64,000 nucleotides of DNA from Pseudomonadota bacterium. Its GTDB lineage: Bacteria; Pseudomonadota; Alphaproteobacteria; Acetobacterales; Acetobacteraceae. The notes under the pieces are model-generated. The model had not been told where the DNA came from and ran no database searches. It worked only from the letters and a program-made list of their open reading frames with translations. Numbering within the stretch: the first letter of the stretch is position 1; each line of letters begins with the position of its first letter. Position numbers and translations under genes: made by a program. The stretch lies in the NCBI GenBank assembly GCA_021780035.1, contig JAJXZO010000075.1, positions 11,483 through 75,482 on the forward strand, written 5' to 3'. Below, in pieces: positions 11,042 through 58,339 of the stretch.

Positions 11042-11048
11042 CGCTTCC

Positions 11049-11995: not shown

Positions 11996-12027
11996 AATAT
12001 AGGAGGAACGGGCAGAGCACGGAAGGG

Positions 12028-12927: not shown

Positions 12928-12995
12928 CCTTCGCCCTTGAGCCAGGCGCCGTCCTGGCCCAGAACCGCAAGCCTGACCACCCGGAGACTGCGCCG

Positions 12996-37498: not shown

Positions 37499-39793
<2,295 letters not shown>

Positions 39794-40032: not shown

Positions 40033-41727
40033 ATGACACAGGACCCCGGCTTGACCGAGACAGTGAGCCTGCGCGAGAGCCGCCCGCCGCCCGAATGGCT
40101 GGCGGGGCGGAGCATCGTGCTGGTCGGACTGATGGGTGCCGGCAAGACCTCGATCGGCCGGCGGCTCGCTGCCCATCTCAGCCTGCCGTTCCGCGACGCC
40201 GACGTCGAGATCGAGCTGGCCGCCGGCTGCACCATCAGCGAGCTGTTCCAGCGCTACGGCGAGCGCGAGTTCCGCGAGGGCGAACGGCGGGTGATCCGCC
40301 GCCTGCTGTCCGCCGACCCGATAGTGCTGGCCTTCGGCGGCGGCGCCTTTATGGACGCCGATACCCGCGCTACCGTGCGGCGCGAGGCGGTGAGCATCTG
40401 GCTGCGCTGCGGCCTGCCGGTGCTGCTGCGCCGGGTCGCCGGGCGCATGCACCGGCCGCTGCTCGCCAACCAGAACCACCAGGAGGTGCTGCAGCGGCTG
40501 ATGGCGGCCCGCCATCCGGTGTACGCCGAGGCCGACATCGTGGTGGACGTCACCGACGACACCCAGGAAGTCACCACCGGGCACGTTCTCGATGCACTCT
40601 ATGCCTTCCGCCCGCCCAGGCGCTTGTCGCTCGCCCTCACCAGTTCCGGCTACGAGGTGGTGGCGGGGGAGAACCTGCTCGCCTCCGCCGGCGCCCTGCT
40701 CGCCCCGGTGCTGGCGCAAAAGCGCGCCGTGGTGATCACCGATACCACCGTCGCCGCCCTGCACCTACCCACTCTGCTGCGCGGCCTGGAAGCCACCGCC
40801 GTCGAAACCCGCTGCATCACCGTTCCCGCCGGCGAGGCGGCGAAAACTCTCGCCTGCTACGGCGAGGTGGTGGAACAGCTGCTCGACAGCGGCGTGGAGC
40901 GGCGTACCACGGTAATCGCCCTCGGCGGCAGCGCGGTGGGCGATCTCGCGGGCTTCGTCGCCGCTACCACGCTGCGCGGCCTGCCCTTCGTGCAGGTGCC
41001 CACCACCCTGTTGTCGCAGGTCGATTCCTCGATCGGCGGCAAGGTCGGCATCGACACGCGGCACGGCAAGAACCTGCTCGGCGCCTTCCACCAGCCGCGC
41101 ATGGTGCTGGCCGATACCGCGACCCTCGCCACCCTGCCGCGCCGCCAGCTTGCCGCCGGCTATGTGGAACTGGTGAAGGCGGCGCTGATCGGCGATGCGG
41201 TGTTCTTCGAATGGTGCGAGGCGAACGGCGCCGCCGTGCTCGCCGGTAACCACGCGACGCAGGCGGAGGGCATCCTGCGCGCCTCGGCCTTCAAGGCGCA
41301 GGCGGTAACCGGCGACGAGCGCGAGGAAAAGACGGAGAACGGCCGCGCGCTGCTCAACCTCGGCCACACTTTCGGCTACGCGCTAGAGACGGAACTCGGC
41401 AACAACACCATCCTGCACGGCGAGGCGGTGGGACTCGGCATCGGCCTTGCCTTCCGCCTCTCGGCGCGGCTCGGCCTCTGTGCCGAGGCCGACGGCGAGC
41501 GGGTGATCGGACACCTCGCTTCACTCGGCGTGCCGATGGAGCTTGCGGCGTTCGGCCGTCCCCTCTCGGCGGCGCGGCTGCTCGAACACATGCACCACGA
41601 CAAGAAGATCCGCGACCGCAGGCTCACCTTCGTGCTGCTGCGGGGAATCGGCAACGCGTTCACGCACGGCGAGGTACCGGAAGAGGCCGTCGCCGCCGTG
41701 CTGCGGGAAGCCGGCTGCGAGCCGTAG
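40033..41727 (+). CDS. aroKB: Fused shikimate kinase / 3-dehydroquinate synthase (AroB half has atypical active-site residues)
   Basis: AroK: GLMGAGKT, DAD, FR, GGGA. AroB: PTTLLSQVDSSIGGK, GKNLLGAF, NLGHTFGY, LHGEAV. Confidence 0.92.
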   Translation: MTQDPGLTETVSLRESRPPPEWLAGRSIVLVGLMGAGKTSIGRRLAAHLSLPFRDADVEIELAAGCTISELFQRYGEREFREGERRVIRRLLSADPIVLAFGGGAFMDADTRATVRREAVSIWLRCGLPVLLRRVAGRMHRPLLANQNHQEVLQRLMAARHPVYAEADIVVDVTDDTQEVTTGHVLDALYAFRPPRRLSLALTSSGYEVVAGENLLASAGALLAPVLAQKRAVVITDTTVAALHLPTLLRGLEATAVETRCITVPAGEAAKTLACYGEVVEQLLDSGVERRTTVIALGGSAVGDLAGFVAATTLRGLPFVQVPTTLLSQVDSSIGGKVGIDTRHGKNLLGAFHQPRMVLADTATLATLPRRQLAAGYVELVKAALIGDAVFFEWCEANGAAVLAGNHATQAEGILRASAFKAQAVTGDEREEKTENGRALLNLGHTFGYALETELGNNTILHGEAVGLGIGLAFRLSARLGLCAEADGERVIGHLASLGVPMELAAFGRPLSAARLLEHMHHDKKIRDRRLTFVLLRGIGNAFTHGEVPEEAVAAVLREAGCEP

Positions 41728-41740
41728 CCCCGCCGCCGCC

Positions 41741-43606
41741 TCAGAGCAGTTCGGTCAGATCGACGCTGCGCGACTGCGCGGTGAGGCGGACATGCGTGTT
41801 GGCGGCGCCGTAGCCCGCGTAGCCGTCGCGCTGCACGATCTCGAAGAAGAACCGCTTGTCGAAGGCGGCTGTGTACATCTGCAGGAACACGTTGCCGTCC
41901 ACGTCCTCGTCGTAGAGGATGTCGCGCGCCGCGAGCCGCTCCACCAGCGCGGCGTCGAGGCCGAAGCGGGCGGCGATGTCGTCGTAGTAGTTGCGTGGGA
42001 TCTGCAGGATTTCCGCCCCGGCCGCCGCCAGCGAGTCGGCGATGGCGAAAATGTCGTCGGTGGCGAGCGCCAGGTGCTGGATGCCGCCGCCGAGCGCGTT
42101 CTCCAGGAAATGCGCCGCCTGCGTGCGGCTGGCGTCGGTGCCGTTCAGGGTCATGCGGAAGGCGCCGTCGGGGCTTTCCACCACCTGGCTCTGCACCACG
42201 CCGGAAGGATCGAAGATGTCCTGGCGCGCGGTCTTCGTCAGGCCGAACAGCGTCGTCCAGTAGAGAAGCCAGGACTGAAACTCCTCGTGGGCGATGGTGG
42301 CGGCGAGATGGTCGAAGCGACGCAGCCCGAAACCTTCGGTCGCCCCGCCCATGCGCTCGAACTCGTGGTCCCAGAGCGCCTCCACCTCGTTCTTGGCGAT
42401 CAGATAGACAAGGCTGCCGCCGACGCCGCGCACCGCCGGCAGCCGCAGGTTGCCGGGACCGGCCTCCTCCTCGAAGTCGTCGATGCCGAGCGCCCGCGCC
42501 CGCGCCCGCGCCCGGCCGACGTTGTCGACCAGAAGGCCTATGGCGCAGACCGAGGCGCCGTAGTTCAGGTAGTAGCTCTGCGCAAAGCTGTTCGGCTGGC
42601 TGTTGACGACGATGTTGATGTCGCCCTGCCGCCAGCGGTTCACCGCCTTGTTGCGGTGCCTGCCGGCAAGCTGGAAGCCGAGGCTGCCCAGCATCGATTC
42701 GATCTGCGCCGCCTCCTCGGGTGAGGCGGCGATCTCGACGAACTCCACCCCGTGCGCGGCGGCGAACGACGGCAGCCGCGGCTGGCGGCCGAGCGCGCGC
42801 TCCGCCGCATCGCAGGTGGCGCTGAGCGCCCGCACGCCGTCCCTGGCGACGATGCCCGCCGATCCGGCGCGAAAGCGGTCGTTGAAGATCTCAAGCGACA
42901 GGGGCCCCTGGTAGCCGATGCGCATCAGCGCCGCCACGTAGTCGGTGACGGGCAGGTCCCCCTGCCCCGGCATGTTGCTGTAGTGGCGGCTCCACTGCCT
43001 GAGGTTCATCTCGAGCATCGGTGCGTCGGCAAGCTGCACCAGGAAGATGCGCGCCGGGTCGATGGTGAGGATGCTGTCGGTCGGCACGCTCCGGGCGATG
43101 GAGTGAAAACTGTTGAGCGCGAGCCCCACCGCGGGATGCCCGGCGGCAGTGACGATCGCCCAGGCGTCGCGGTGGTCGCTGACGTGCGCGCCCCAGGACA
43201 GCGCCTGGTAGGCGATGCGAAGCCCCCGCGCCGCCGCGCGCTCGCCGAGTTCGCGCAAGTCGTCTGCGATGCGGGCGTGATCGCCGTTCGCCTCGGCGAC
43301 GGAGCTGGATGAGACGAGCAGCAGATCGGTGCCGAGCCGCGCCATCAGGTCGAACTTGCGGAGCGCGCGGTCGAAGGCGCGCTGGCGCCGCGCTCCGGCC
43401 AGCCCCTCGAAATCGGCAAACGGCTGATAGGCGATGCAGCGAAGGTTGAGATCGGCAAGCATCCCCCGCGCGTCTTCCGGGGAGCCGTCAAAGGCGACGA
43501 GATCGCTCTCGCAGATCTCCACGCCGTCGAAGCCGGCCTTGGCGACGACCGGCAGCTTGTCGCCGAGCGCGCCGCTGATCGATACGGTAGCGATAGAAGT
43601 GAGCAT
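41741..43606 (-). CDS. QuiC1-like fusion (xylose-isomerase-like TIM barrel + HPPD-like domain); dehydratase site appears degenerate
   Basis: SIATVS, GFDGVEI, VQLADAP, SLEIFND; C-terminal FDHL, IQHLAL, FFFEIVQR. Q134 and N165 sit at the recalled E134/D165 metal-ligand positions. Confidence 0.88.
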   Translation of the reverse strand: MLTSIATVSISGALGDKLPVVAKAGFDGVEICESDLVAFDGSPEDARGMLADLNLRCIAYQPFADFEGLAGARRQRAFDRALRKFDLMARLGTDLLLVSSSSVAEANGDHARIADDLRELGERAAARGLRIAYQALSWGAHVSDHRDAWAIVTAAGHPAVGLALNSFHSIARSVPTDSILTIDPARIFLVQLADAPMLEMNLRQWSRHYSNMPGQGDLPVTDYVAALMRIGYQGPLSLEIFNDRFRAGSAGIVARDGVRALSATCDAAERALGRQPRLPSFAAAHGVEFVEIAASPEEAAQIESMLGSLGFQLAGRHRNKAVNRWRQGDINIVVNSQPNSFAQSYYLNYGASVCAIGLLVDNVGRARARARALGIDDFEEEAGPGNLRLPAVRGVGGSLVYLIAKNEVEALWDHEFERMGGATEGFGLRRFDHLAATIAHEEFQSWLLYWTTLFGLTKTARQDIFDPSGVVQSQVVESPDGAFRMTLNGTDASRTQAAHFLENALGGGIQHLALATDDIFAIADSLAAAGAEILQIPRNYYDDIAARFGLDAALVERLAARDILYDEDVDGNVFLQMYTAAFDKRFFFEIVQRDGYAGYGAANTHVRLTAQSRSVDLTELL

Positions 43607-43723
43607 CGGCCTGCCGTCCTCGCCTCTGGCTGCGCGCCGCCGCGAAACCGCGCCTTCCCGCGCAGCCAACGCAGTCTAGGCGCCCGCCACCGCCGTCGCA
43701 ACCGGCAGGGCCACAGGCGCCGC

Positions 43724-44428
43724 CTACTCGGAGAGGGTCTTGTCCTGGACCGTGCGGGCCACGCACTCGGAGACGTGCTGCGTGAGAATGGCCTTCGCCG
43801 CCGGGGCGTCGTGGCGGAGCGCGCAGTCGAACAGCATGCGGTGCTCCCCGGCGGTGATCTCACCGCGGAAGGACACCGCGATCATCAGGTAGCGCAGGTA
43901 GCGGTCGTAGACCGAGGCGCAGGTTTCCAGCAGCGCCCGCGACCCGCAGGCGGAGATGAGGGCCTTGTGGAACTCCCAGTCGTATTTCTTCCAATCCTCG
44001 ACGCTGGCCTTGTCTCCGCCCAGCATCATCCCCTCGACCAGGGCGAGCTTGTGATGGGCGGCGGCGACGCGGCCCTCCCAGTCGATGTCGCCGGCGGCGA
44101 AGGATTCCTCCATCGCCGGGCACTCAACCAGAAGCCGCAGCGCGGCGAGTTCCTTGAGGTCGGCCACCGAGACCGGCGCCACCCGGAACCCCCGCTGCTC
44201 CTCGGCGATGACGAGTCCCTCGGACGACAGCCGGCTCAGGATCTCGCGCAAGGTGCTGACCGACGGACCGTAGGCCGTGCGCAGACGATCGAGGCGCAAC
44301 CTCTCTCCCGGTACGAAACGCCCGAAGATGATATCGGAGCGGATCTGCCGATAGACGCTTTCTCCGACCGTAGTTGGCTCAGCTAGACTGGTGGACAAAG
44401 TCCGTCTCCGTTCCTTGGCGTTCGCCAT
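43724..44428 (-). CDS. GntR/FCD-family transcriptional regulator
   Basis: VYRQIRSDII, PGERL, STLREILSRL, GFRVAPVS, FHKALISACGS. Start uncertain. Confidence 0.9.
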   Translation of the reverse strand: MANAKERRRTLSTSLAEPTTVGESVYRQIRSDIIFGRFVPGERLRLDRLRTAYGPSVSTLREILSRLSSEGLVIAEEQRGFRVAPVSVADLKELAALRLLVECPAMEESFAAGDIDWEGRVAAAHHKLALVEGMMLGGDKASVEDWKKYDWEFHKALISACGSRALLETCASVYDRYLRYLMIAVSFRGEITAGEHRMLFDCALRHDAPAAKAILTQHVSECVARTVQDKTLSE

Positions 44429-44557
44429 CCGGCGGAACGTTTCGTGCACCCGCCCGATGGATTTGTCCACCATCCCGGGCGGCGGCACCTGGTGCTCGCT
44501 GCCCGCCGCATGCGCGGGAACCATCTCGTCGTCGCTCCGGAGAATATCCGAGCACAA

Positions 44558-44580
44558 CGGAAATCTCAAATGATTTTCCG
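44558..44580. promoter_or_regulatory. Candidate GntR operator (AAATC-N6-GATTT inverted repeat)
   Basis: CGGAAATCTCAAATGATTTTCCG lies in the divergent gntR/ydiB intergenic region; a near-copy occurs at 58323-58339. Confidence 0.45.
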
Positions 44581-44761
44581 CTCGGGCGACATCTTCGCCT
44601 TGTTCGGATGAGCCGAGGCGCGTATCAGACCCTTCGCGATGCCGCCGCCCTCGCGCATGGCCGCGGCCAGCCGTTTCCGGAAGGGGCGCGCGCGGGCGCG
44701 CCGCCACCCGCCCGGAAAGCCTGAGCGCCCCGTTCCTGGATGTTTCGTGGAGTAGCGGCCA

Positions 44762-45643
44762 ATGTCCCAAGAGATTCCGCAGATCGTCACCGGGCACACC
44801 GAGCTTCTGGGGCTGATCGCCTATCCGATCCGCCACTCGAGCTCGCCCAGGATGCACAACCTCGCCCTCGCGAGGCTCGGCCTCGACTACGTCTACCTCG
44901 CCTTCGAGGTCGATGACCGGGAGCTGAAGGGCGCCATCGACGGCATGAAGGCGCTGAAGGCGCTGGGATGGAACGTCTCCATGCCGAACAAGGTGGAAGT
45001 GGTGAAGCATCTCGACAAAATCTCCCCCGCCGTCGAGCTCTGCGGCGCCTGCAACACCGTGGTCAATGACGCCGGCGTGCTCACCGGGCACAACACCGAT
45101 GGCCTCGGCTACATCCTGGCGCTGCGCCAGGTGGGCATGGATATAGCGGGCCGGCGGCTCGTACTGATCGGCGCCGGCGGCGCCGCCGTCGCCATCACCA
45201 CGCAAGCGGCGCTCGACGGGGCGGCGGCGATCGACATCTTCAACCAGCGCGACGCGTTCTTTCCGCAGGCCGAGGCCCTCGCCGGCCGCATCTCCGCCCG
45301 TACCGGCTGCCCGATCGCCGTGCACGACCTTGCCGATACGGGGAACTTCCGCGCCGTCGTCGCCCGCGCCGATATCCTCGGCAACGCATCGAAGATCGGC
45401 TTCAAAGGGGAACTCGAGAGCCTTTCGCCGCTGCCCGATTCCTCGGTGCTGCGGGCGGACCTGTTCGTCAGCGACGTGGTGTACGCGCCGCTGAAAACCA
45501 GGCTGCTCCGCGAGGCCGAGGCAGCCGGCTGCCGCACCATGGGCGGCATCCCGATGATGTTGCACCAAGGGGCGGCGGCGTTCAAAATGTGGACCGGCAA
45601 GGACATGCCGCTCGACTACGTCGAAGAGCACCTGTTTTCGTAG
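44762..45643 (+). CDS. ydiB: Quinate/shikimate dehydrogenase (YdiB type)
   Basis: GLIAYPIRHSSSP, NVSMPNK, NTV, NTDG, GAGGAA, IFNQRDAFF, WTGKDMPLDYV closely track recalled E. coli YdiB. Confidence 0.88.
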   Translation: MSQEIPQIVTGHTELLGLIAYPIRHSSSPRMHNLALARLGLDYVYLAFEVDDRELKGAIDGMKALKALGWNVSMPNKVEVVKHLDKISPAVELCGACNTVVNDAGVLTGHNTDGLGYILALRQVGMDIAGRRLVLIGAGGAAVAITTQAALDGAAAIDIFNQRDAFFPQAEALAGRISARTGCPIAVHDLADTGNFRAVVARADILGNASKIGFKGELESLSPLPDSSVLRADLFVSDVVYAPLKTRLLREAEAAGCRTMGGIPMMLHQGAAAFKMWTGKDMPLDYVEEHLFS

Positions 45644-45690
45644 GGGCCCCGCCGCGGGAGCGCGGCCGGGCATTGGCAAGGGGTCGCGCG

Positions 45691-46458
45691 ATGCGAACGG
45701 TTGGCGTGAAGAACGTCGTTCTCGGTGAGGGCAGGCCGAAGATCCTGGTGCCCATCGCCGCCACCACCTCGGCCGACGCCATCGCCGCGGCAGCTCGGCT
45801 CGGCGCCGAGGCCGGCCTCGACATCATCGAGTTCCGCGTCGACTACCTCGACATCGCCTTCGATACGCCGCGCCTGGCCCGCCTCACCCGCACGGTGGCC
45901 GAGGTCGCTCCCGGCAAGCCGCTCCTTGTCACCTTCCGCACCAAGGCGGAAGGCGGGGCGGCGGCGCTCTCCGATGCCGCCTATGCCGAGTTCTATGGCG
46001 CCGTGCTGCGCGAGCGCTCCGCCGACCTCATTGACGTCGAACTGATGCGCGACGAGCGGGTGGTGCGCGGTCTCGTCGCCGCGGCGCATACGGCGGGAGT
46101 GCCAGTGGTGATGTCGAACCACGACTTCGCCGGCACCGCGCCGACGGAAGAACTGGTGGGACGGCTGCGGCGGATGCAGGAACTGGACGCCGACGTCCTC
46201 AAGATTGCCACCATGCCGCAGGACGCGGGCGACGTGCTGAAGCTGCTCTCCGCCACCTGGATCATGCACAGCCAGTACGCCGAGCGGCCGCTGATCACCA
46301 TGGCGATGGCGGGCAAGGGCGTGCTCTCCCGCCTCGCCGGAGAGCTAGTCGGTTCCGCAGCCACCTTCGGCATGGTGGGAACGCCCTCCGCGCCCGGGCA
46401 GATGGCGCTGCCCGATCTGAAGGCGACGCTGGAACTGATCAGCCGTTCGATGAAGTAG
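45691..46458 (+). CDS. aroD: Type I 3-dehydroquinate dehydratase
   Basis: GEGRPKILVP, EFRVD, TFRTKAEGG, SNHDF, KIATMP (Schiff-base Lys), MAGKGVLSRLAGE, SAPGQ. Confidence 0.94.
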   Translation: MRTVGVKNVVLGEGRPKILVPIAATTSADAIAAAARLGAEAGLDIIEFRVDYLDIAFDTPRLARLTRTVAEVAPGKPLLVTFRTKAEGGAAALSDAAYAEFYGAVLRERSADLIDVELMRDERVVRGLVAAAHTAGVPVVMSNHDFAGTAPTEELVGRLRRMQELDADVLKIATMPQDAGDVLKLLSATWIMHSQYAERPLITMAMAGKGVLSRLAGELVGSAATFGMVGTPSAPGQMALPDLKATLELISRSMK

Positions 46459-47374
46459 TGACGCAGGCGTTCGCGCCAGCACCCAGATGCGCGAGCCGGC
46501 CGGGCAGGCGGCGCCCGATCCGCTTTTCCAGCACGAGCGCGAGGTCGGCGAGCTTCCGCCAATCGATGCCGGTGGCCACGCCCATTTCCTCCAGCGCATA
46601 GGCCGCGTCCTCGGCCGCGACGTTGCCTGCTGCCCCCGGGATGAACGGGCAGCCGCCCAGGCCGCCGAGCGCCACATCGAAGATGGTGATGCCCGCTTGC
46701 AGCCCGGCCACCATATTGGCAACGCCCAGCCCCCGCGTGTCGTGCAAATGCAGCGACAGCTTCACCCGCTCCGACACCTCCGCGCGCACGCGGCGGGCGA
46801 GCGCGTCGATCGACTTCGGGTTGCCGAGCCCGGCCGAATCCGCGAGATTGATCTCGTGCGCGCCGAGACGGTCATAGAGCCGGGCGATATCGCACACCAC
46901 GTCGGGGGAGATCGCGCCCTCGTAGGCGCAGCCGAATGCCGACTGGATGCCGCCGCGGGTGACGATGCCCGCGTTCACCGAACCCGAAATCATGTCGCGG
47001 ATCTGCACCATGCTTTCCGCGAGCGTCCGGTTGGTGTTCTTCCGGCTGTGCATCTCGCTCGCCGAGATCGACACGCTGAGGTGCGGAACCTTGCAGGCGA
47101 TGGCGCGCTGGAGCCCCTTCTCGTTCAGCACCAGCGCCGTGTAGGTCACATCGGACCGGCGCTCGAGGCGGCGGAACACCTCGTCGGTATTCGCCATCTG
47201 CGGCACCCACTTCGGATGCACGAACGAACCCACCTGGATGCGGCGCACGCCAGCCGCTTCCATGCCCTTGATGAAACCGATGATCTCCTCGACCGAAAGC
47301 TGCGTCTTTTCGCTTTGCAGCCCGTCGCGCAGGCATTCGTCCTCGATCACGACATTCGGCGGCAACTCGTACAT
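46439..47374 (-). CDS. HMG-CoA lyase family (DRE-TIM metallolyase)
   Basis: LRDGLQSE, SFVHPKWVPQMA, HLHDTRG, GGLGGCPF, GNVAAED. Confidence 0.9.
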   Translation of the reverse strand: MYELPPNVVIEDECLRDGLQSEKTQLSVEEIIGFIKGMEAAGVRRIQVGSFVHPKWVPQMANTDEVFRRLERRSDVTYTALVLNEKGLQRAIACKVPHLSVSISASEMHSRKNTNRTLAESMVQIRDMISGSVNAGIVTRGGIQSAFGCAYEGAISPDVVCDIARLYDRLGAHEINLADSAGLGNPKSIDALARRVRAEVSERVKLSLHLHDTRGLGVANMVAGLQAGITIFDVALGGLGGCPFIPGAAGNVAAEDAAYALEEMGVATGIDWRKLADLALVLEKRIGRRLPGRLAHLGAGANACVTTSSNG

Positions 47375-47414
47375 CGCTGTTCTTCCCATTCTCTCGAAAC
47401 TTCGGCGCACTTCC

Positions 47415-48491
47415 TCAGGAAAGCGAGACGACGCGCCCCGTGGTCGCGGCTTCCCTCACCGCGAGCGTCACCGCCAGCGTCCGGGTGCCATCGCGCGCGT
47501 CGATCAGCGGCTTCGCCTCGCCGCGGACCACGTCGCAGAAGTGGTGCATCTCGTTGGTGAGCGGATCGCTGTTGATTCGAAGCGTCCAGGCGTCCTGCTC
47601 CGCCACGACGGCGCGCTCGGCGTGCAGCGGCGCCCACCATGCCTCCGCCCCACCGTGGCGCCAGAATTCGCCCCGCGGAACGGAAAGCGCTCCTTCCATC
47701 CCGGTAACGAAATAGCAGCTTTCGCCGCTTTTCGGATAGGCCCGATTCTCACCCGAGGTCAGCTCCCAGCTCCAGGGACCGGCCGTCGCGTCCGATAGCG
47801 CGATCGTGCCGACCGCGCCGTTCGCGAAGCGGAGCACGATGCCCACCGTGTCTTCCACCGGGAAGCCGCGCGCGGCCGAAGAGGCCATCGCCTGCACGCT
47901 CTCGATCTCACCGCAGAGGTTGCGCAGGTCGTCGATAACGTGGATCAGGTTGATCAGCACTGGGCCGCCACCCGGCTTGCGCCGCCATTCCCCGACGCCT
48001 TCGAAATAGTCCTGCGGCTTCAGAAACCAGGAGAATGCGTGGACGGCGGTGATCCTGCCGAGACGGCCCGCCTCAATAACAGCTTTCGCCTGTCGCATCA
48101 CCGTACCATGGCGATGGTGGTGCCCGACCAGCACCGCAACGCCCGCCTTCTCCGCAGCGTCGGCGAAGGCACACCCTTCCTCGACCGTGTCGCAGACCGG
48201 CTTTTCCATCAGCATCGGCAGCCCACGTCTCAACAGTTCCATTCCCGACTGGAAATGGAATTGGTTGGGAAGCGCCACGACCACACCGTCCGCCGCAACG
48301 CGGTCTAGCATCGCCGACAGGTCGGGCGCCCACGCGACACCGAGAATGTCCGCCTGTTCCCGTATCTTCGGCACCGGATCGACGATGCCGACCAGATCGG
48401 CGCCGGGCTCGTCGAGAACGCGCCTGATGTGCGCCTGTCCGATCAGTCCGGCCCCGGCGACGACCAGACGCGTCTTTCCCTTGTCGCTCAT
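47415..48491 (-). CDS. Gfo/Idh/MocA oxidoreductase
   Basis: VAGAGLIG, MEKP, VGHHHRH, GGGPVLINLIHVIDD. Confidence 0.9.
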   Translation of the reverse strand: MSDKGKTRLVVAGAGLIGQAHIRRVLDEPGADLVGIVDPVPKIREQADILGVAWAPDLSAMLDRVAADGVVVALPNQFHFQSGMELLRRGLPMLMEKPVCDTVEEGCAFADAAEKAGVAVLVGHHHRHGTVMRQAKAVIEAGRLGRITAVHAFSWFLKPQDYFEGVGEWRRKPGGGPVLINLIHVIDDLRNLCGEIESVQAMASSAARGFPVEDTVGIVLRFANGAVGTIALSDATAGPWSWELTSGENRAYPKSGESCYFVTGMEGALSVPRGEFWRHGGAEAWWAPLHAERAVVAEQDAWTLRINSDPLTNEMHHFCDVVRGEAKPLIDARDGTRTLAVTLAVREAATTGRVVSLS

Positions 48492-48520
48492 TGCCCACTC
48501 CCGTTTCCCGCCCGCGCGCC

Positions 48521-50410
48521 CTAGAGCATGATGGTGGAAATCACCGGGAACGCGGCGATGATCGCCAGTGCGATCACCAGCATGGCGAGAAGCGGCCAGA
48601 TATTGCGCATCGTCTGCTCGGGCGACACTCGGCCGATGGCGCAGGCGCCATAGAAGCCGAGCCCGAACGGTGGCGCGAACAGGCCGATGCCCATCGCCAG
48701 GATGTCCACGATGGCGTAGTGCACGTCGTTGATATGCAGGGCGCGGGCCACCGGGAAAAGCAGCGGCGCCAGCAGCACGATCACGGGCATGCCTTCGAGC
48801 ACGCTCCCCAGAACCACGAACACGACGATCGACAGCGCCATGAAGGGCAGGACACCGCCGGCGTGCGTTATCATCTCGGTCAGCGCGTGCGAGAAACCGG
48901 ACTGGGTCAACGCCCAGGCCATCGCCGTGGCGCAACCGACGATGAGCAGGACCACCCCCGAAAGCGAGGCGGTATCGGCGAGAATCGGGTACATCCGGTC
49001 CCACTGCACCTGCTTCCAGGTGATTAAGCCGATGAGCAGGGCGTAGATGATGCCGATGGTGGACACTTCCGTTGCTGTGGTGATGCCGCCCAGCACGAAC
49101 GTGCGGATGAGGAACGGCAGCGCCAGGCCCGGGAGGGCAAGGATGAACGTGTATCCGATTGTCCGCCATGAGGCGCGGGGGGTGACCGTTCCGCTTCTGC
49201 GCGCCTTCCAGCCGACGTAGATTACCAGCGACAGCGCCGCCACCAGCGCCGGCAGGATGCCGCCGGCAAACAACCCGGCGATGGACACGCCGGCCACCGC
49301 GCCGATGGCGATGAGCACGATGCTCGGCGGAATGGTCTCCGACATGGCGCAGGCGGCCGCCAGAAGCGCCACCATCTTTCCGGGGTCGTTGCCGCGCTTC
49401 CTCATCTCGGGCACCAGAATTGGCGCGACGGCCGCCATATCGGCGATCTTCGAGCCCGAAATGCCGGAGATCAGGAAGATCGCGCCCAGCAACACGTATT
49501 CCAGGCCGCCGCGGACGTGGCCCAGCAGCGCGACGAGGAAGTTGACCATGTTGCGGGCCATTCCCGTCACCTCGATCAGCACGCCGAGGTAGATGAACAG
49601 CGGCACCGCCAGCAGCAGCATGTTGGAAACACCGATGTCGATGCGGTTGAGCATGATCGACAGCGGCGCATGTGTGGAAAAACTGAGGTAGGCCATCGTC
49701 GCGATGCCGAAGGAAAAGGCGATCGGCGTTCCGGAGAAAATGGCGACGAAGACGACCGGCCCGAAGAAGATGGCGAGGCTCGCCGGACCCATGCTCGCCC
49801 ACGTGCTTTGGAACATCCACAGCGGCGCGGCGATAGCGGCGACGGCAATGATCGCGCCGATCAGGTGGGCCGGACGAACCAGCCGCAGCCGGACGACAGC
49901 CATCACCAGCATCAGCCCGAACGAGATCGGCAGCGCGCTCGACCGCCACGAGTCCGGAATCTCGAACTGCGGGGTGAGCATGATGTACTGCTGAATCGTG
50001 TAAATTACGGATTGGTAGGCTATCCCCGCGAGGAATACCACGGAGACCACCTGCGCAAACGCGTTGACCCAGGGCTTCCAGGCTTCCGGCAGCATCTGCA
50101 GCGCAGTCGTCATCCGCATGTGCTCGCTGCGCTGGTAGCCCAGCACGGCGCCGAGCATCGTCAGCCAGATGAACAGGATGATCGCTGTCTCGTCGGTCCA
50201 GAGCGATGGCGAATCGAGCACGTAACGGGTCGTGACACCCCAGAACAGGATGATCACCTCGGCCACCACCAGTATCGCGCCAAGCGCCTCCATCGTCACG
50301 CCGATGTAACGCTCGATTGCGGTCTGGCGCTGGATCTGATGCGCCACCCCGGCGACAGCTTCCGGGGGAATTTCCCCCGGAAGCACGACATCATTGGACT
50401 CGGCAGTCAT
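48521..50410 (-). CDS. TRAP transporter fused DctQ-DctM membrane subunit
   Basis: DETAIILFIWLTMLG...EHMR (DctQ) followed by GISGSKIAD, TIPPSI, TATEVS, PPFGLG (DctM); TGATG overlap with dctP. Confidence 0.9.
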   Translation of the reverse strand: MTAESNDVVLPGEIPPEAVAGVAHQIQRQTAIERYIGVTMEALGAILVVAEVIILFWGVTTRYVLDSPSLWTDETAIILFIWLTMLGAVLGYQRSEHMRMTTALQMLPEAWKPWVNAFAQVVSVVFLAGIAYQSVIYTIQQYIMLTPQFEIPDSWRSSALPISFGLMLVMAVVRLRLVRPAHLIGAIIAVAAIAAPLWMFQSTWASMGPASLAIFFGPVVFVAIFSGTPIAFSFGIATMAYLSFSTHAPLSIMLNRIDIGVSNMLLLAVPLFIYLGVLIEVTGMARNMVNFLVALLGHVRGGLEYVLLGAIFLISGISGSKIADMAAVAPILVPEMRKRGNDPGKMVALLAAACAMSETIPPSIVLIAIGAVAGVSIAGLFAGGILPALVAALSLVIYVGWKARRSGTVTPRASWRTIGYTFILALPGLALPFLIRTFVLGGITTATEVSTIGIIYALLIGLITWKQVQWDRMYPILADTASLSGVVLLIVGCATAMAWALTQSGFSHALTEMITHAGGVLPFMALSIVVFVVLGSVLEGMPVIVLLAPLLFPVARALHINDVHYAIVDILAMGIGLFAPPFGLGFYGACAIGRVSPEQTMRNIWPLLAMLVIALAIIAAFPVISTIML

Positions 50411-51426
50411 CAAGAAAGGGTTCCTACGACCTGCTCGAGCGCACTCCACACCTTATCGCCATACTTCTTGTGCCAATCCTTATAATAAGTCGTGGTTTTC
50501 AGTTTGTCGCGGAAGGACGCCAAGTCCGGCACCGTCACCGCCATTCCCTGGGACTTGAGAAGGTCGGTCGTGTGCTGGTTATCTGCGAGAATGGCGGCCC
50601 GCTCTTCCTTCGCCGCCGCCTCGAAGTTGCGCGCCATGATTTCCTTAATGTCATTCGGCAACTTGGTCCACAACGCCTTATTGGCGATGATCCACCAGTT
50701 GTCCCACATGTGGTTGGTGAGAGCGAGATGCTTCTGCACCTCGTACAGCTTGAAGGTCTCGATCTGCTGCACTGGCCCCTCGGAGCCTTCGGCAACCCCG
50801 GTTTGCAGCGACGTGTAGAGCTCGCTGATATCGACGCTCATCGGCGCCGCTCCCAGGTTCGCCCACAGCGAAGTCCACACCTGCCCGATCGGCAGCCGGA
50901 GCTTCAGATTCTTCACGTCCTTCACGTCCTTCACGACGCGGCGCGTAGTCGTGAGCTGCCTGAAGCCCTGCTCGAAACAAATCGGCTGACAGTAGAAACC
51001 ACCCTTGTCCAGGGCGTCGCGGACGATCGCGCCGAGCGCGCCGTCCATTGCCTTCCACGCCTGCTGGGGATCCTTGAACGCGAAGCCGACCGCGTTGATG
51101 CCGGCCACCGGAACCACATTGGAAAGCGAGCTGCCGCTTTCCATCTGGAAGTCCAGCGCCCCGCTATGAACCTGCATGATCATGTCGAGGTCGCCGCCCA
51201 ATTGCCCCGACGGGTAGGTCTGCAGGTGGATGCGCCCCTTCGATTCCTTGGCCATATTGGCTGCCGTCTTGTCGAGCACCTGAACGGCGATATGGTCCTT
51301 CGGCTGCACCATGCCGATCTTGAAGTTGTACTGGGCGGCCTGCGCCGAGCGACCCGGAATGATAAGTGCCGGCGTCGCCAATGCGGCGACAGTCCCGACT
51401 GTAAACCTACGACGTGTAACGTGCAT
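50410..51426 (-). CDS. TRAP solute-binding protein DctP family, Tat-type signal
   Basis: YPSGQLGGD, GFRQLT, LKLRLP, ELYTSLQTGV, EVQKHLALTNH; N-terminus VTRRRF. Confidence 0.9.
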   Translation of the reverse strand: MHVTRRRFTVGTVAALATPALIIPGRSAQAAQYNFKIGMVQPKDHIAVQVLDKTAANMAKESKGRIHLQTYPSGQLGGDLDMIMQVHSGALDFQMESGSSLSNVVPVAGINAVGFAFKDPQQAWKAMDGALGAIVRDALDKGGFYCQPICFEQGFRQLTTTRRVVKDVKDVKNLKLRLPIGQVWTSLWANLGAAPMSVDISELYTSLQTGVAEGSEGPVQQIETFKLYEVQKHLALTNHMWDNWWIIANKALWTKLPNDIKEIMARNFEAAAKEERAAILADNQHTTDLLKSQGMAVTVPDLASFRDKLKTTTYYKDWHKKYGDKVWSALEQVVGTLS

Positions 51427-51674
51427 GACGTTCTCCCCTGAGTTGGCGATCATTCTCCCTCCCTCATCTCCGGGAGGGCGCTTCCAGCAAAACCGATCTA
51501 TCTCCGCCCAATGCGGATATCTCTGCCTCCATACCGCCACGACCGCATGGCTAGCAGCATAGCTGACAACTGAAAAATACCTTTCCTAATGCTTCCAGTC
51601 AACGGCCGCGGCAGCAAATGATAGCGTTATGACGCGCTTTCGCGCCACCATTGCCGCCCTTCCAATGCGGTTGA

Positions 51675-52418
51675 TCATACGAAAATCCCCCCGTTTACAT
51701 CGAGAACTTCGCCGGTGACCCATCCTGACTCGTCGCTGGCGAGGAACACGGCGGCGTAGGCGATGTCGTCCATCGTCCCCAGGCGGGGTACGCAGGCGTT
51801 GCTCAACAAAACCTTCAGTTTCTCCGGCTCGAGCTGGCTGGTCATCTGTCCGCGCAAAGGACCGGGCGCGATGCTGTTGACCGTAATATTGAAGGTGCCG
51901 AGTTCACGAGCCAGGGTCTGCGTGAGTCCGATCACGCCGGCCTTGGAGGCAGCGTAATCCACTCCGACACCTGGCCGCCCGGTGCGTCCGCCGAGTGACG
52001 AAATATTGATGATATGCCCGGCGCTCCGCGCCTTCATGCCGGGAACGACGGCTTTGCACGCGACGAACGTGCCGGTCAGGTTGATGCCGATCACCTTCTC
52101 CCAGGCGGCGACCGGCAGCTGGTCAATCGGCATGTGGTCGAGGACGCCGGCGCAATTCACAAGGACATCAATGCCGCCGAACAGCTTTTCGGTTTCCGCA
52201 ACAGCCCGTTCCACCGCTTCGAGGTCGCGTACGTCGCCGGTCAGCGCCGTCAGACGCCGCCGCTCGCCGCCCAGGACGTTGGAGACTTTTTGCAGCAGAG
52301 CGGAGTTGACGTCGAAGAGGGCAACCGCCGCACCGTGTTCCAGGAAGCGCCCGGCGATCGCGGCGGCGATCTCGCCGCCGCCGCCGGTCACGAATGCGAC
52401 TTTCCGCTCCAGCCTCAT
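51675..52418 (-). CDS. Short-chain dehydrogenase/reductase
   Basis: VTGGGGEIA, LVNCAG, NISS, YAASK, VNSIAPG, VTGEVLDVNGG. Confidence 0.9.
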   Translation of the reverse strand: MRLERKVAFVTGGGGEIAAAIAGRFLEHGAAVALFDVNSALLQKVSNVLGGERRRLTALTGDVRDLEAVERAVAETEKLFGGIDVLVNCAGVLDHMPIDQLPVAAWEKVIGINLTGTFVACKAVVPGMKARSAGHIINISSLGGRTGRPGVGVDYAASKAGVIGLTQTLARELGTFNITVNSIAPGPLRGQMTSQLEPEKLKVLLSNACVPRLGTMDDIAYAAVFLASDESGWVTGEVLDVNGGIFV

Positions 52419-52521
52419 GGCCTTTACCTCCGTGCAAGATTCGACGATCAGATCGTCCGGAATCTCTCACCCGTCACGCCCGGCGGTGCAAGACCCCGCC
52501 CTGCGTATCGCTCCCTCACGT

Positions 52522-53838
52522 CTATTCGCGGCGCATCTTGATCGCGGCAGCCACTACCACCGACAGCAGTCCGCCGAGCGCCATGAACGCCGCCACCGGC
52601 TGCCACGTGTGGTTCATGTCGAACAGCAGCGTGCCGATGAAGGGCGTGAATCCGCCGAAGATCACGCTCGCCACCTGATAGCCGATGTTGGCACCGCTGT
52701 AGCGGTATTCGGTGCCGAAGAAACCGGTGAACAGCGGCTGCTGCACCGAGTTCACCATATCGTGCGCGATGTTCGCGAGCAGCACCGAGAGGATGACGAT
52801 CCACACCACCGAGCGCGCTTCCATTGCCATGAAGAACGGCCACGTCGCCAGCACGCCGATGATGGCGCCAGTCAGGTACACCCGCTTGTAGCCCACCCTG
52901 TCGGCGAGCCACGCGAAGAACGGCAGTGTGACGCAGCTCACCGCGCCGACCACGAAGCCGACGTTGAGGAACAGCGAGCGCGACATGTGCAGCACGGACA
53001 CCGAATAGTAGAGAGAGAAGGTGGTGACCATGTACATCGCCAGCAGCTCGATGGCGCGCATGGAGATGATGATGAAGAACGCGCCGGGGTGCCGCGTGAG
53101 CGCGACGATGACCGGCGCCTTGATGTGCCGCTCGCCGTGCGCACCCACCTTGGCCACGAACTCTGGCGTCTCTTCCAGGCCGAGCCGGATCCAGAGCGCG
53201 ATGCCGACGAGAACGATGCTGAACAGGAACGGCACGCGCCAGCCCCACGACAGGAAGGCGGCGTTGCTCATCGTCGCGCTCAGCGTCGACATGATGCCGG
53301 TGACGATAATCAGCGCCACGCCGTAGCCCACCTGCACGCCGCTGCTGAAAAAGGCCTTCTTGCCGGAAGGCGCGCTTTCCACGGCCATCAGAGCGGCGCC
53401 GCCCCATTCGCCGCCAACCGCGACCCCCTGCAGGATGCGCAGGAGAACCAGCAGCAGCGGCGCATACCAGCCGATGGATGCGTAGGTCGGCAACAGGCCG
53501 ATGCAGGCCGATGAAACGCCCATCAGGCCGACGGTGATGACCAGCATGGCGCGGCGGCCAACGATATCACCATAGTGGCCGAAGATGATCCCGCCCAGAG
53601 GCCGGAACAGGAAGCCCACGCCGAGAGTGGCGAATGCCGCCAGCGTCCCCAGCGTGGGGTCGTGGCTCGGAAAGAACAGGCCGTTGAACACGACGGCCGC
53701 CATGAAGCCGTAGAGAAGGAAATCGTACCAGTCGACAATGGCACCGACGAAGCTGCCGAGCGCCGCCTTGCGCGAGCGTGCCGAGGCGATTTCCGTCGCA
53801 CCTACCGCTCCCTTCACGATCGCCGCCGTCTCGGACAT
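52522..53838 (-). CDS. shiA: Shikimate transporter ShiA (MFS, MHS family)
   Basis: DWYDFLLYG, FRPLGG, VGGEWGGAAL, KKAFFSSGVQVGYG, EYRYSGA match recalled E. coli ShiA. Confidence 0.85.
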   Translation of the reverse strand: MSETAAIVKGAVGATEIASARSRKAALGSFVGAIVDWYDFLLYGFMAAVVFNGLFFPSHDPTLGTLAAFATLGVGFLFRPLGGIIFGHYGDIVGRRAMLVITVGLMGVSSACIGLLPTYASIGWYAPLLLVLLRILQGVAVGGEWGGAALMAVESAPSGKKAFFSSGVQVGYGVALIIVTGIMSTLSATMSNAAFLSWGWRVPFLFSIVLVGIALWIRLGLEETPEFVAKVGAHGERHIKAPVIVALTRHPGAFFIIISMRAIELLAMYMVTTFSLYYSVSVLHMSRSLFLNVGFVVGAVSCVTLPFFAWLADRVGYKRVYLTGAIIGVLATWPFFMAMEARSVVWIVILSVLLANIAHDMVNSVQQPLFTGFFGTEYRYSGANIGYQVASVIFGGFTPFIGTLLFDMNHTWQPVAAFMALGGLLSVVVAAAIKMRRE

Positions 53839-53914
53839 TTCTTTCTCCCCGTCACTTTGTTCGTTCGTCTCGTCGTGTGGGCCGGCCGATTGCCGGCCGG
53901 CCCGTCCGTCCCTC

Positions 53915-55678
53915 TCAGTCGGTCGCCACGTGGGCAGCCTTTTTTTCTCCCGGCGAGTAGATGTCGAGAATATTCCAGTGCCCCGCCGTTGGTGTCGGGT
54001 TGTTGCGCATGGCGACGTCGATCACGCACGGTCTGCCCGAGGCGATCGCCTTCTCCAGCGCCGGCTTGAAGTCCTCGGCCTTGCGGACGCGCACGCCTTC
54101 CACGCCGTAGGCGCGGGCGATCGCCGCGTAGTCGGGCATGTACTCGTCGCCGGCGTTCGGGAAGGTGGCGCCGTACGTCATCCCGTAGTGGGCCATCTGC
54201 AGCCCGGCGATGGTGCCGAAGGCGTTGTTGTTCATCACCACCCACACCACGGGCACGTTCTCGTCCACCGCGGTGGCGAGCACCGAAGGGTTCTGCCCAA
54301 AGCCGCCGTCGCCCACCAGCGACACCACCACCCGGTCCGGGCAGGCGATCTTGGCACCGAGGGCGGAAGGCGGGCCGAAGCCCATGGTGGCGAGCCCGCA
54401 CGGCGTGAGGAAACTGCCTGGTGTGTAGATGGGAAATTGCTGGCCGACACCGTTCTTGTTCCAGCCGACATCGGTGGTGAGAATGGCGTCGCGCGGCAGC
54501 ACCGCCCGCGTCTCCGCGAGGATGCGCTCCGGCATCATCGGGAAGGAATCGCTTTCCGCCATCGCCTTGTTGCTCGCGCGGAACTCGGCGCGCACCGCGG
54601 CGATCTCGGCTTCCAGCGCCTCGTTCCGGCGCGGCTTGGGATAGATCTCGCGGGCGACGCGGTTCAGCGTCTTCAGCGCCTGCTTCAGGTCCGCCACCGC
54701 GCCGATCTCGGTCGGATAGTTGCGGCCAATCTCGCTCGGGTCAATGTCGATGTGGGCAAGCTTCGTCGGCGGGAAGGCGAAGGTGTATTCCGGCTCCCAG
54801 GAGCTGCTGTCGGCCTCCTTGAAGCGCGTACCGAGCGCCAGCACCCAGTCGGAGGTTCGGGTTTTCTCGTTGATGAACCTGGTGCCCCAGAAGCCGGTCA
54901 TGCCGAGCAGCAGCGGATGGTCGTCGGGCAGCGCGCCCTTGCCCATCAGGCTGTGCGACACGGGGATGCCCATGTGATCAACGAAGGCTTTGAGTTCCTC
55001 CGCCGCCTTCGCCAGTACGATGCCGCCGCCGACGTGGATCACAGGGCGCTTCGCCTCGCCCAGGGCGCGGACGATGGCCACCGCCGCGTCGTGATCGAGA
55101 TCAGGCTTCGCCAAGCTCTTGGTGTTGTGCTGCAGGCGGTCGAACAGCGCCGTGTCCACCTCGCGGGAGAAGATGTCCATCGGCACGTCCACCAGCACCG
55201 GGCCGGGCTGCCCGCTCTCCGCAAGCTGGAAGGCCTTTTCCAGAATCTCGGGAAACAGTTCGGGACGTTCCACCCGCCACGCGCGCTTGACGAACGGGCG
55301 GTAGATCTCGAACTGATCGCCGTCGGTATGCAGATTCACTTCCTGGTGCGGGTGCTTGCCGTAGTAGTGGCTGGGGATGTCGCCTGCGATCACCACCATC
55401 GGGATGCAATCGAGAGCCGCGTTGGCAACGCCCGTCGCCGCGTTGGTCAGCCCCGGCCCGAGATGGGTGAGCAGCACGGATGCCTTGCCGGTCACGCGCG
55501 CATAGCCGTCGGCCGCGTGGGCGGCGATCTGCTCGTGCCGGACGGATACGAAATGAACCTTGCTGTTCGCCATCGCCGACAGTGCTGCGATAACGGTATG
55601 GCCTGTAAGTCCGAAGACGTGCCTGACGCCGCGCCGTTCGAGATAGCGGACCAGTTGGTGAGAGACGAGATCGCGCAT
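53915..55678 (-). CDS. Thiamine-diphosphate-dependent enzyme (acetolactate synthase/IolD/CDH superfamily), substrate unknown
   Basis: RHEQ (catalytic Glu), GPGLTN, GPVLVDVPMD, GTRF, and ThDP motif GDGG...VVMNN. Confidence 0.9.
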   Translation of the reverse strand: MRDLVSHQLVRYLERRGVRHVFGLTGHTVIAALSAMANSKVHFVSVRHEQIAAHAADGYARVTGKASVLLTHLGPGLTNAATGVANAALDCIPMVVIAGDIPSHYYGKHPHQEVNLHTDGDQFEIYRPFVKRAWRVERPELFPEILEKAFQLAESGQPGPVLVDVPMDIFSREVDTALFDRLQHNTKSLAKPDLDHDAAVAIVRALGEAKRPVIHVGGGIVLAKAAEELKAFVDHMGIPVSHSLMGKGALPDDHPLLLGMTGFWGTRFINEKTRTSDWVLALGTRFKEADSSSWEPEYTFAFPPTKLAHIDIDPSEIGRNYPTEIGAVADLKQALKTLNRVAREIYPKPRRNEALEAEIAAVRAEFRASNKAMAESDSFPMMPERILAETRAVLPRDAILTTDVGWNKNGVGQQFPIYTPGSFLTPCGLATMGFGPPSALGAKIACPDRVVVSLVGDGGFGQNPSVLATAVDENVPVVWVVMNNNAFGTIAGLQMAHYGMTYGATFPNAGDEYMPDYAAIARAYGVEGVRVRKAEDFKPALEKAIASGRPCVIDVAMRNNPTPTAGHWNILDIYSPGEKKAAHVATD

Positions 55679-55707
55679 GGTTGCTTTCCTGTTTTCCGTT
55701 TCCTCGC

Positions 55708-57117: not shown

Positions 57118-57187
57118 AGGAACCGCCTCGTTTCGTTGACTGTCTACAGGTTACGGAGCGCGGACAGCCGGGCCCCGCCGCCGCGGG

Positions 57188-58027: not shown

Positions 58028-58322
58028 TTCCCGCGTTCCTTCCATCAACCGCGGCGAAAGTCCGGCTTCCGCCGCCGCATCTCGTTTTCCGGCGCCCCCG
58101 TCGCGCGCCGCAGCCGTGACGGCGGGGAATGCCATGGCGCGCGACCACCCGGCGTCAGGCGCCAGCCAGCCTTCCCCGGAGTCTCCGGTCGTGCGCACGC
58201 AGGCGTTTCCACACCGTCATCGTTTGCAGCCCCCTGTCGGCCAAGGGCCTTGAGTTCACGTCCGGCGCATCCGTACCTTACTCTCGATCCTCAAAGCAAG
58301 CACAATATGTCGGCCATGTGCG

Positions 58323-58339
58323 AAAATATCTGAGATTTT
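58323..58339. promoter_or_regulatory. Candidate operator, near-copy of the 44558-44580 motif
   Basis: AAAATATCTGAGATTTT; its reverse complement AAAATCTCAGATATTTT aligns with GAAATCTCAAATGATTTT at 44560. Confidence 0.4.

What the first reader, a model, noticed from the sequence alone, without database searches (positions are those of the whole stretch)
40033..46458. Possible quinate/shikimate salvage bypass into aromatic amino-acid synthesis
Inference from combined observations. De novo entry (AroB) looks impaired and the catabolic exit (QuiC1) looks disabled. Uptake (ShiA, TRAP), YdiB, AroD and AroK look intact, and these suffice for quinate to DHQ to DHS to shikimate to shikimate-3-P. The organism might depend on plant-derived quinate or shikimate for chorismate synthesis.
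Basis: inference. Interest (0 to 1): 0.6.

Follow-up and report, generated by a model that had tools for sequence, protein, structure and literature searches.

The report
Island aroK-aroB copy; no quinate dependence
The damaged-looking dehydroquinate synthase and dehydroshikimate dehydratase are real, but they lie on an inserted 18-kb shikimate/quinate gene island, and an intact synthase elsewhere in the genome means the bacterium does not need plant quinate to make aromatic amino acids.

Summary
The stretch is the left end of an 18.4-kb island (about 40033-58198) inserted between maeB and mutS in an uncultured Acetobacteraceae genome.

- **aroK-aroB.** The island carries a second copy of the family's fused gene. 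Its kinase domain is intact and is the only shikimate kinase found. Its DHQ-synthase domain is altered in the NAD turn (G312S), beside the catalytic Lys (T350V) and at the proton-relay His (H461Y).
- **QuiC1-like protein.** Four of ten dehydratase active-site residues are replaced (R64A, E134Q, D165N, R210S).
- **Intact genes.** YdiB, type I AroD, ShiA and the GntR regulator look intact.
- **De novo pathway.** The native aroKB locus (contig C216) has lost its kinase domain but keeps a canonical AroB. DAHP synthase II, AroQ, AroE, AroA and AroC are present.

Sister genomes show the mirror patterns, so this is reciprocal domain loss after island-borne duplication. Facultative salvage of imported shikimate remains possible but untested. 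The island's other genes point to catabolism.

The parts
40033..41727 (+). Island-borne fused aroK-aroB (564 aa). The kinase domain is at about 40102-40608 and the DHQ-synthase domain at about 40615-41718.
   Evidence: Pfam and NCBIfam hits. Same sequence as database protein P0121. ATG start and TAG stop.
40930..41379 (+). Altered catalytic and cofactor positions of the AroB domain: G312S (40930-40932), V313A, T350V (41044-41046), N353D and H461Y (41377-41379).
   Evidence: The role of the His275 equivalent is described in PMC7144000.
41741..43606 (-). QuiC1-like two-domain protein (621 aa). The dehydratase site carries R64A, E134Q, D165N and R210S. The His/His/Glu triad of the HPPD-like domain is kept.
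43724..44428 (-). GntR/FCD-family regulator (234 aa).
44561..44578 (+). Operator-like quasi-palindrome in the gntR/ydiB divergent region. Its only other copy in the window is at 58322-58338.
   Evidence: Two matches against 0.00 expected from shuffles. A degenerate version is conserved in G004 and G009.
44762..45643 (+). YdiB-type NAD quinate/shikimate dehydrogenase (293 aa).
45691..46458 (+). Type I 3-dehydroquinate dehydratase AroD. An alternative GTG start lies at 45589.
46439..58198 (-). The rest of the island, a co-oriented run of nine genes: TIM barrel 57188-58198, acylating ALDH 55708-57117, ThDP enzyme 53915-55678, ShiA 52522-53838, SDR 51675-52418, DctP 50410-51540, DctQM 48521-50449, Gfo/Idh/MocA 47415-48506 and HMGL-like 46439-47410.
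   Evidence: Synteny with G004 and G009 is shown.
58322..58338 (-). Second copy of the operator-like motif, upstream of the nine-gene run.
40033..58198 (.). Extent of the inserted block between maeB (37499-40003, -) and mutS (58412-61060, +).
   Evidence: maeB and mutS are adjacent in G006 and G010. The same block has different flanks in G004 and G009. Homology between copies starts at the aroKB start codon.

Best explanation
**Setting.** The stretch is the left end of an 18.4-kb genomic island for shikimate/quinate uptake and conversion. The island was inserted between maeB and mutS of an uncultured, bog-type Acetobacteraceae bacterium.

**Origin of the odd AroB.** The island brought in a second copy of the family-typical fused aroK-aroB gene. 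With two copies present, each lost a different half.
- The native copy (contig C216) lost its kinase domain by deletion and keeps a canonical DHQ synthase.
- The island copy keeps the only shikimate kinase found. Its DHQ-synthase domain has accumulated changes at the NAD turn, beside the catalytic Lys and at the proton-relay His. That it is therefore inactive or strongly impaired is inferred, not assayed.

**De novo synthesis.** It is split over the two loci and is complete, so the organism should be prototrophic.

**QuiC1-like protein.** It belongs to a small clade whose dehydratase site is drifting. All eight members have D165N and R210S/G, and five of them have further, differing hits. The C-terminal HPPD-like domain stays conserved. 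The protein most likely no longer makes protocatechuate, which fits a genus in which no intradiol dioxygenase was found.

**What the island does.** YdiB and AroD can still convert imported quinate and shikimate to dehydroshikimate. Some shikimate can reach chorismate through the island kinase. The co-regulated nine-gene run suggests that the main flow is catabolic, by a route not yet described.
For: **Island.**
- maeB and mutS are 150-350 bp apart in G010 and G006, against 18.4 kb here.
- The same block, aroKB through the TIM-barrel gene, occurs in G004:C155 and G009:C86 with unrelated flanks. In G009 the flank is a large serine recombinase.

**Fusion is the norm.** In 23 of 24 other sampled genomes of the family the query found aroK and aroB, in most as one fused gene.

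**Reciprocal loss.**
- C216 is syntenic with the native aroKB locus of G001, G002, G008 and G009, but about 0.6 kb of kinase-coding sequence is missing.
- In G004 the native locus is kinase only and the island copy is canonical.
- In G009 the native copy is complete and the island copy is variant, GGM and Tyr.

**C216 belongs to this genome.**
- It carries the bin's only accA-like and xerD-like genes.
- Its GC content and tetranucleotide profile are typical of the bin.

**Domain decay.**
- Nine island-clade AroKB proteins have G312 changed to S, N, R or M. Eight have T350V. Six have H461Y or H461N.
- They show 1-9 departures at 130 invariant AroB columns, against a mean of 0.27 in canonical sequences. 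The kinase domain shows 0-1 departures at 49 columns.
- The AroB branch of the window copy is 0.33, against 0.08-0.10 for canonical sisters.
- The AroB/SK identity ratio is 0.90-0.94 for the S/Y forms, against about 1.02.

**QuiC1-like protein.**

**De novo genes.**

**No evident protocatechuate exit.**
- No Dioxygenase_C hit above cut-off in any of 11 genomes of the genus.
- The single LigB-family hit is YgiD-like.
Against: - No activity was measured. G312S and H461Y could leave residual DHQ-synthase activity, and D165N could still bind metal.
- The genome is a 90%-complete bin of 253 contigs. A second kinase or a dioxygenase could therefore lie in the missing part, and linkage of C216 to the window contig is inferred from composition and single-copy genes only.
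- In the AroB tree, C216 groups with G008 rather than with the island-clade sisters, so its history is not fully resolved.
- The AroB domain is still 74% identical to canonical sequences. It remains under constraint, which pure decay does not explain.
- A D165N QuiC1-like protein also accompanies the TIM-barrel/ALDH/ThDP trio in an unrelated family. This hints at an altered function rather than a lost one.
Confidence: 0.75

Rival explanations
1. De novo entry is broken and the catabolic exit is closed, so the organism depends, at least conditionally, on imported quinate or shikimate for chorismate.
For: - The island AroB domain and the QuiC1-like site are altered.
- ShiA, YdiB, AroD and the kinase are intact.
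- No protocatechuate dioxygenase was found.
Against: - A canonical AroB sits at the native locus.
- DAHP synthase II, AroQ, AroE, AroA and AroC are all present.
- Sister genomes always keep one canonical AroB.
Confidence: 0.04
2. The altered AroB and QuiC1-like domains are not dead but have been recruited to new reactions in an undescribed, non-aromatic route for dehydroquinate or dehydroshikimate breakdown. They would act together with the TIM-barrel, acylating ALDH, ThDP and HMGL-like enzymes. One example would be an NAD-independent ring opening of dehydroquinate by the AroB-like domain.
For: - Both domains stay full length and fairly conserved.
- The Zn ligands and most substrate-binding motifs of AroB are kept.
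- The C-domain of the QuiC1-like clade has six shared, fixed replacements.
- The TIM-barrel/ALDH/ThDP trio is conserved in two other alphaproteobacterial families, once beside a D165N QuiC1-like gene.
- A homologue of the TIM barrel is fused to QuiC1-like proteins in Actinoplanes.
Against: - The residues at the changed sites differ between close relatives: G312 becomes S, N, R or M; H461 becomes Y or N; R64 becomes A or H; S206 becomes Y, C or N; one protein has H168Y. This is what drift looks like, not a new fixed active site.
- The island copy in G004 is fully canonical, so the island works without a changed AroB.
Confidence: 0.15
3. A binning artefact. Contig C216 comes from a different, related organism, so the genome holding the window has no canonical AroB.
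For: - The bin has 2.5% estimated contamination and 253 contigs.
- The C216 AroB groups with G008 in the tree.
Against: - C216 holds the bin's only accA-like and xerD-like genes.
- Its GC is 0.700 against a bin mean of 0.701, and its tetranucleotide correlation of 0.992 lies within the bin's range.
- A native locus lacking the kinase only makes sense beside an island-borne kinase.
- G009 independently shows a variant island copy together with a canonical native copy.
Confidence: 0.05

Closest known systems
Quinate/shikimate catabolic clusters with two-domain dehydroshikimate dehydratase (P. putida QuiC1, PDB 5HMQ; C. glutamicum qsuABCD)
   Same: - A quinate/shikimate dehydrogenase, a dehydroquinase, a QuiC1-type two-domain protein, a transporter and a local regulator are clustered.
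- The QuiC1-like protein aligns with 5HMQ over its full length.
   Different: - Four of the ten active-site residues are replaced.
- No protocatechuate dioxygenase was found in the genus.
- The cluster also carries aroK-aroB and a ThDP/acylating-ALDH/TIM-barrel set.
E. coli ShiA transporter with the ydiB-aroD pair
   Same: - ShiA passes the equivalog cut-off.
- An NAD-type YdiB is followed directly by a type I AroD.
- Uptake feeding the kinase step is the known way in which E. coli aro mutants use shikimate (own knowledge).
   Different: - Here the pair lies on an island in an alphaproteobacterium that also has AroQ and AroE for biosynthesis.
- AroD is therefore not the biosynthetic dehydroquinase.
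Bifunctional AroK-AroB fusions (NCBIfam NF010627, NF010556) and the eukaryotic AROM polypeptide
   Same: A single polypeptide with a shikimate kinase domain followed by a DHQ synthase domain.
   Different: - The Acetobacteraceae fusion scores far below those models' cut-offs (266.7 against 565; 202.9 against 560).
- In the island clade the synthase half carries active-site substitutions.
Duplication-degeneration-complementation (subfunctionalisation) and pseudoenzyme domains
   Same: Two copies of a bifunctional gene each keep a different function. A catalytic domain survives as a folded but probably inactive module.
   Different: - The duplicate arrived on a mobile island rather than by tandem duplication.
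- Three related genomes show three different outcomes.

Membership tests
3-dehydroquinate synthase AroB (TIGR01357) | Whole-domain match above the curated equivalog cut-off. | tested here: met
   326.9 bits against 305 for the window copy, and 355.8 for the C216 copy.
3-dehydroquinate synthase AroB (TIGR01357) | Glycine-rich NAD turn, GGGxxGD. | tested here: not met
   The window has GGSAVGD. All 109 canonical close homologues have GGG.
3-dehydroquinate synthase AroB (TIGR01357) | Proton-relay His, the second His of HxxGH (His275 of the A. nidulans enzyme). | tested here: not met
   The window has HTFGY at 41377-41379. The residue's role is described in PMC7144000. The mapping to His275 is by motif spacing only.
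3-dehydroquinate synthase AroB (TIGR01357) | Zn ligands (Glu of ExxK, first His of HxxGH, His of LHGE) and the catalytic Lys of GGK. | tested here: met
   ELVK, GHTF, LHGEA and GGKV are present in the alignments to solved DHQ synthases.
3-dehydroquinate synthase AroB (TIGR01357) | Catalysis of DAHP to DHQ. | not testable with these tools
   Needs an enzyme assay or complementation.
Shikimate kinase (PF01202; NF010552) | Match above cut-off with the Walker A, DxD and GGG motifs. | tested here: met
   228.3 bits against 186. GLMGAGKT, DAD and FGGG are present. No departures at 49 invariant columns.
QuiC1-type 3-dehydroshikimate dehydratase (NF042435; PDB 5HMQ) | Two-domain architecture: a TIM barrel followed by an HPPD-like domain. 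| tested here: met
   The NCBIfam score is 594.9, below the 1200 cut-off.
QuiC1-type 3-dehydroshikimate dehydratase (NF042435; PDB 5HMQ) | The ten active-site residues R64, L97, E134, L136, D165, H168, Q191, S206, R210 and E239. | tested here: not met
   Six of ten are kept. R64A, E134Q, D165N and R210S are changed.
YdiB-type quinate/shikimate dehydrogenase | Full-length match with the catalytic Lys (SMPNK) and Asp (NTDG). | tested here: met
   E = 2e-87 to E. coli YdiB (1NPD), with both motifs present. The NCBIfam scores lie below the equivalog cut-offs: 388.5 against 431, and 315.9 against 349.
Type I 3-dehydroquinate dehydratase AroD (TIGR01093) | Match above cut-off with the Schiff-base Lys and the catalytic His. 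| tested here: met
   213.9 bits against 139.3. The SNHDF and LKIA motifs align with the Salmonella enzyme.
Shikimate transporter ShiA (NF007414) | Match above the equivalog cut-off. | tested here: met
   647.7 bits against 538.

The most novel reading that the evidence does not exclude
The island encodes an undescribed, non-aromatic route for breaking down shikimate and quinate. YdiB and AroD would feed dehydroquinate or dehydroshikimate to the conserved TIM-barrel, acylating-ALDH, ThDP-enzyme and HMGL-like set. The altered QuiC1-like protein, and perhaps the NAD-blind AroB domain, would have been recruited to new steps rather than simply decaying.
Probability: 0.15. Interest if true: 0.8.

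Novelty: new variant of a known kind. Interest (0 to 1): 0.35.

Why it matters
- **Annotation.** Pipelines would call the window gene a working bifunctional AroK/AroB and the QuiC1-like gene a dehydroshikimate dehydratase. Both calls are probably wrong for the affected domains. A reader seeing only this window would wrongly infer auxotrophy.
- **Evolution.** The three related genomes give a clean natural example of reciprocal domain loss after a mobile island duplicated a fused two-enzyme gene. As a result an essential step, shikimate kinase, is now encoded only on an acquired island.
- **Metabolism.** The case does not open a new metabolic principle by itself. The neighbouring nine-gene run may do so.

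Tried and rejected
The gene contexts of the metagenomic variant proteins P0002-P0008 and P0122-P0138 therefore could not be read.
- Two family scans failed on wrong coordinates and were repeated.
- **Operator motif.** The exact motif was not found in the G004 and G009 loci; only a degenerate version aligns. No copy lies upstream of aroKB, so co-regulation of aroKB with the island is not shown.
- **Upstream of aroKB.** The upstream DNA is not conserved between the three island copies or with the native locus. The idea that the island carried the native promoter was dropped.
- **TIM-barrel protein at 57188-58198.** The search of solved structures gave only weak hits to Lmo2234, IolI and QuiC1. 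Its alignment to QuiC1 keeps the metal ligands and the R210 equivalent, but has Tyr in place of His168. It was not accepted as a substitute dehydratase.
- **LigB-family hit.** It is a YgiD-like dioxygenase, not LigAB.
- **dN/dS.** It was not attempted, because at about 76% protein identity and 90% GC3 the synonymous sites are expected to be saturated. Invariant-column counts and domain identity ratios were used instead.
- **Sulfonate link for the ALDH/ThDP pair.** A TauE-family gene lies near the trio in G710, but no such gene is in this island. The idea was left open.
Full report
**What is in the stretch.** The window has about 70% G+C, so genes were called from third-position GC and family matches.

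| Coordinates | Strand | Gene |
|---|---|---|
| 37499-40003 | - | maeB |
| 40033-41727 | + | fused aroK-aroB |
| 41741-43606 | - | QuiC1-like two-domain protein |
| 43724-44428 | - | GntR/FCD regulator |
| 44762-45643 | + | YdiB-type dehydrogenase |
| 45691-46458 | + | type I dehydroquinase AroD |

A co-oriented run of nine genes follows on the minus strand, down to 46439. It holds a TIM barrel, an acylating ALDH, a ThDP enzyme, ShiA, an SDR, DctP, DctQM, a Gfo/Idh/MocA oxidoreductase and an HMGL-like protein. mutS follows at 58412.

- The AroB half still passes the aroB equivalog cut-off. It reads GGSAVGD where relatives read GGGVVGD, GGKVG where they read GGKTG, and HTFGY where they read HTFGH.
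- In an alignment of the 120 closest database proteins, 130 AroB-domain columns are invariant in 109 canonical sequences. The window protein departs at nine of them, against a mean of 0.27 for canonical sequences. Its kinase domain departs at none of 49.
- The second His of HxxGH corresponds by motif spacing to His275 of the A. nidulans enzyme. That residue takes the proton from the C5 hydroxyl while hydride passes to NAD (PMC7144000). The changes therefore cluster on the redox step.
- The QuiC1-like protein aligns with P. putida QuiC1 over its whole length. Of the ten active-site residues listed for QuiC1 and QsuB (PMC7442255), it has R64A, E134Q, D165N and R210S.
- YdiB, AroD, ShiA and the kinase keep their catalytic motifs.

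**The dependence inference fails.** The genome is a 90%-complete bin of 253 contigs.

| Step | Place | Evidence |
|---|---|---|
| AroB, standalone, canonical (GGG, HTFGH) | C216 | 355.8 bits against 305; |
| Class II DAHP synthase | C130 | 699.6 against 614.7; |
| AroQ | C90 | |
| AroE | C52 | 336.2 against 295; |
| AroA | C170 | |
| AroC, cut by a contig end | C129 | |
| Shikimate kinase | window fusion only | |

**Why the window copy is odd: an island and a reciprocal loss.**
- In 23 of 24 other sampled genomes of the family, identified as Acetobacteraceae by record titles, the query found aroK and aroB, in most as one fused gene.
- In genus members G006 and G010, maeB and mutS are neighbours. 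In this genome 18.4 kb lies between them.
- The same block, starting exactly at the aroKB start codon, occurs in G004 and G009 with unrelated flanks. In G009 the flank is a large serine recombinase.
- Contig C216 is syntenic with the native aroKB locus of other genus members, next to xerD-like and accA-like genes. The kinase-coding part is deleted and a TTG-initiated AroB is left.
- C216 carries the bin's only accA-like and xerD-like genes and has typical composition, so it belongs to this genome.

| Genome | Native locus | Island copy |
|---|---|---|
| This genome (G000) | AroB only | kinase + altered AroB |
| G004 | kinase only | fully canonical |
| G009 | complete fusion | kinase + altered AroB (GGM, Tyr) |

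In each genome at least one good copy of each domain remains.

**Decay rather than a new active site.**
- Among the island-clade proteins, G312 is S, N, R or M. H461 is H, Y or N. T350V is nearly shared. The number of hits at invariant columns rises stepwise from 1 to 9.
- The AroB branch of the window copy is about four times longer than those of its canonical sisters. Its AroB/kinase identity ratio is 0.94, against about 1.02.
- In the eight-member QuiC1-like clade, all have D165N and R210S/G. Five carry further, differing changes (R64A/H, E134Q, H168Y, S206Y/C/N). The ten residues are essentially invariant in 45 other homologues, with only one L97M and one H168Q.
- The dehydratase domain has lost its usual extra conservation relative to the C-terminal domain: the ratio is about 1.0 against 1.2. 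The C-terminal domain keeps its His/His/Glu triad and six clade-wide fixed replacements.
- No intradiol dioxygenase was found above cut-off in any of 11 genus genomes, and the one LigB-family hit is YgiD-like. A dehydratase making protocatechuate would therefore have no evident outlet.

**What the region probably does.** YdiB and AroD can turn imported quinate and shikimate into dehydroshikimate. The island kinase lets some shikimate enter the chorismate branch, so facultative salvage is plausible but unproven. An operator-like motif occurs only before ydiB and before the nine-gene run, not before aroKB. This ties ydiB-aroD to that run and argues for catabolism as the main purpose.

**Leads for a novel route.**
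- The TIM-barrel/ALDH/ThDP trio is conserved in two other alphaproteobacterial families, once beside a D165N QuiC1-like gene.
- A homologue of the TIM barrel is fused to QuiC1-like proteins in Actinoplanes.

These leads keep a novel, non-aromatic route alive as the most interesting reading, but nothing here tests it.

**Limits.**
- No activity was measured.
- The bin is incomplete.
- The placement of the C216 AroB with G008 in the tree is unexplained.

Noticed in passing
window 53915-58198; L124 (G710:C28) 9812-13917; L125 (G669:C1) 9780-14240: The trio of TIM barrel, CoA-acylating ALDH and ThDP enzyme is conserved as a block in two other alphaproteobacterial families, at 48-74% identity. In G710 it lies beside a QuiC1-like gene with D165N and a TauE-family permease. 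In G669 it lies beside GntR, Gfo/Idh/MocA and TRAP genes, with no shikimate genes.
   Followed up: partly
L114-L116 (Actinoplanes genomes), about 9900-12630: A QuiC1-like protein and a homologue of the window's TIM-barrel protein (45% identity) are read as one open frame of 901-917 aa. The protein atlas lists a 140-member actinobacterial cluster with this architecture.
   Followed up: partly
G000 contig C216 755-1006 (-): A fragment resembling the C-terminal 70-85 residues of AroB (47-51% identity, with one in-frame TGA) lies just downstream of the standalone aroB. It may be a relic of an older rearrangement at the native locus.
   Followed up: no
window 41741-43606 compared with the wider database: The QuiC1-like clade is closer to Sphingomonas- and Sphingobium-type QuiC1 (53-58% identity) than to the QuiC1 of its own family (about 45%). 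This suggests that this part of the island was acquired from outside the Acetobacteraceae.
   Followed up: partly
window 39997-40033 and maeB start: The longest maeB ORF would start only 29 nt from the aroKB start codon. The malic-enzyme domain begins at residue 98, so the true maeB start is probably about 70-80 codons further in.
   Followed up: no
P0208: One more distant AroK-AroB protein (70% identity) has the proton-relay His replaced by Gln while GGG is intact. Its context is unknown.
   Followed up: no
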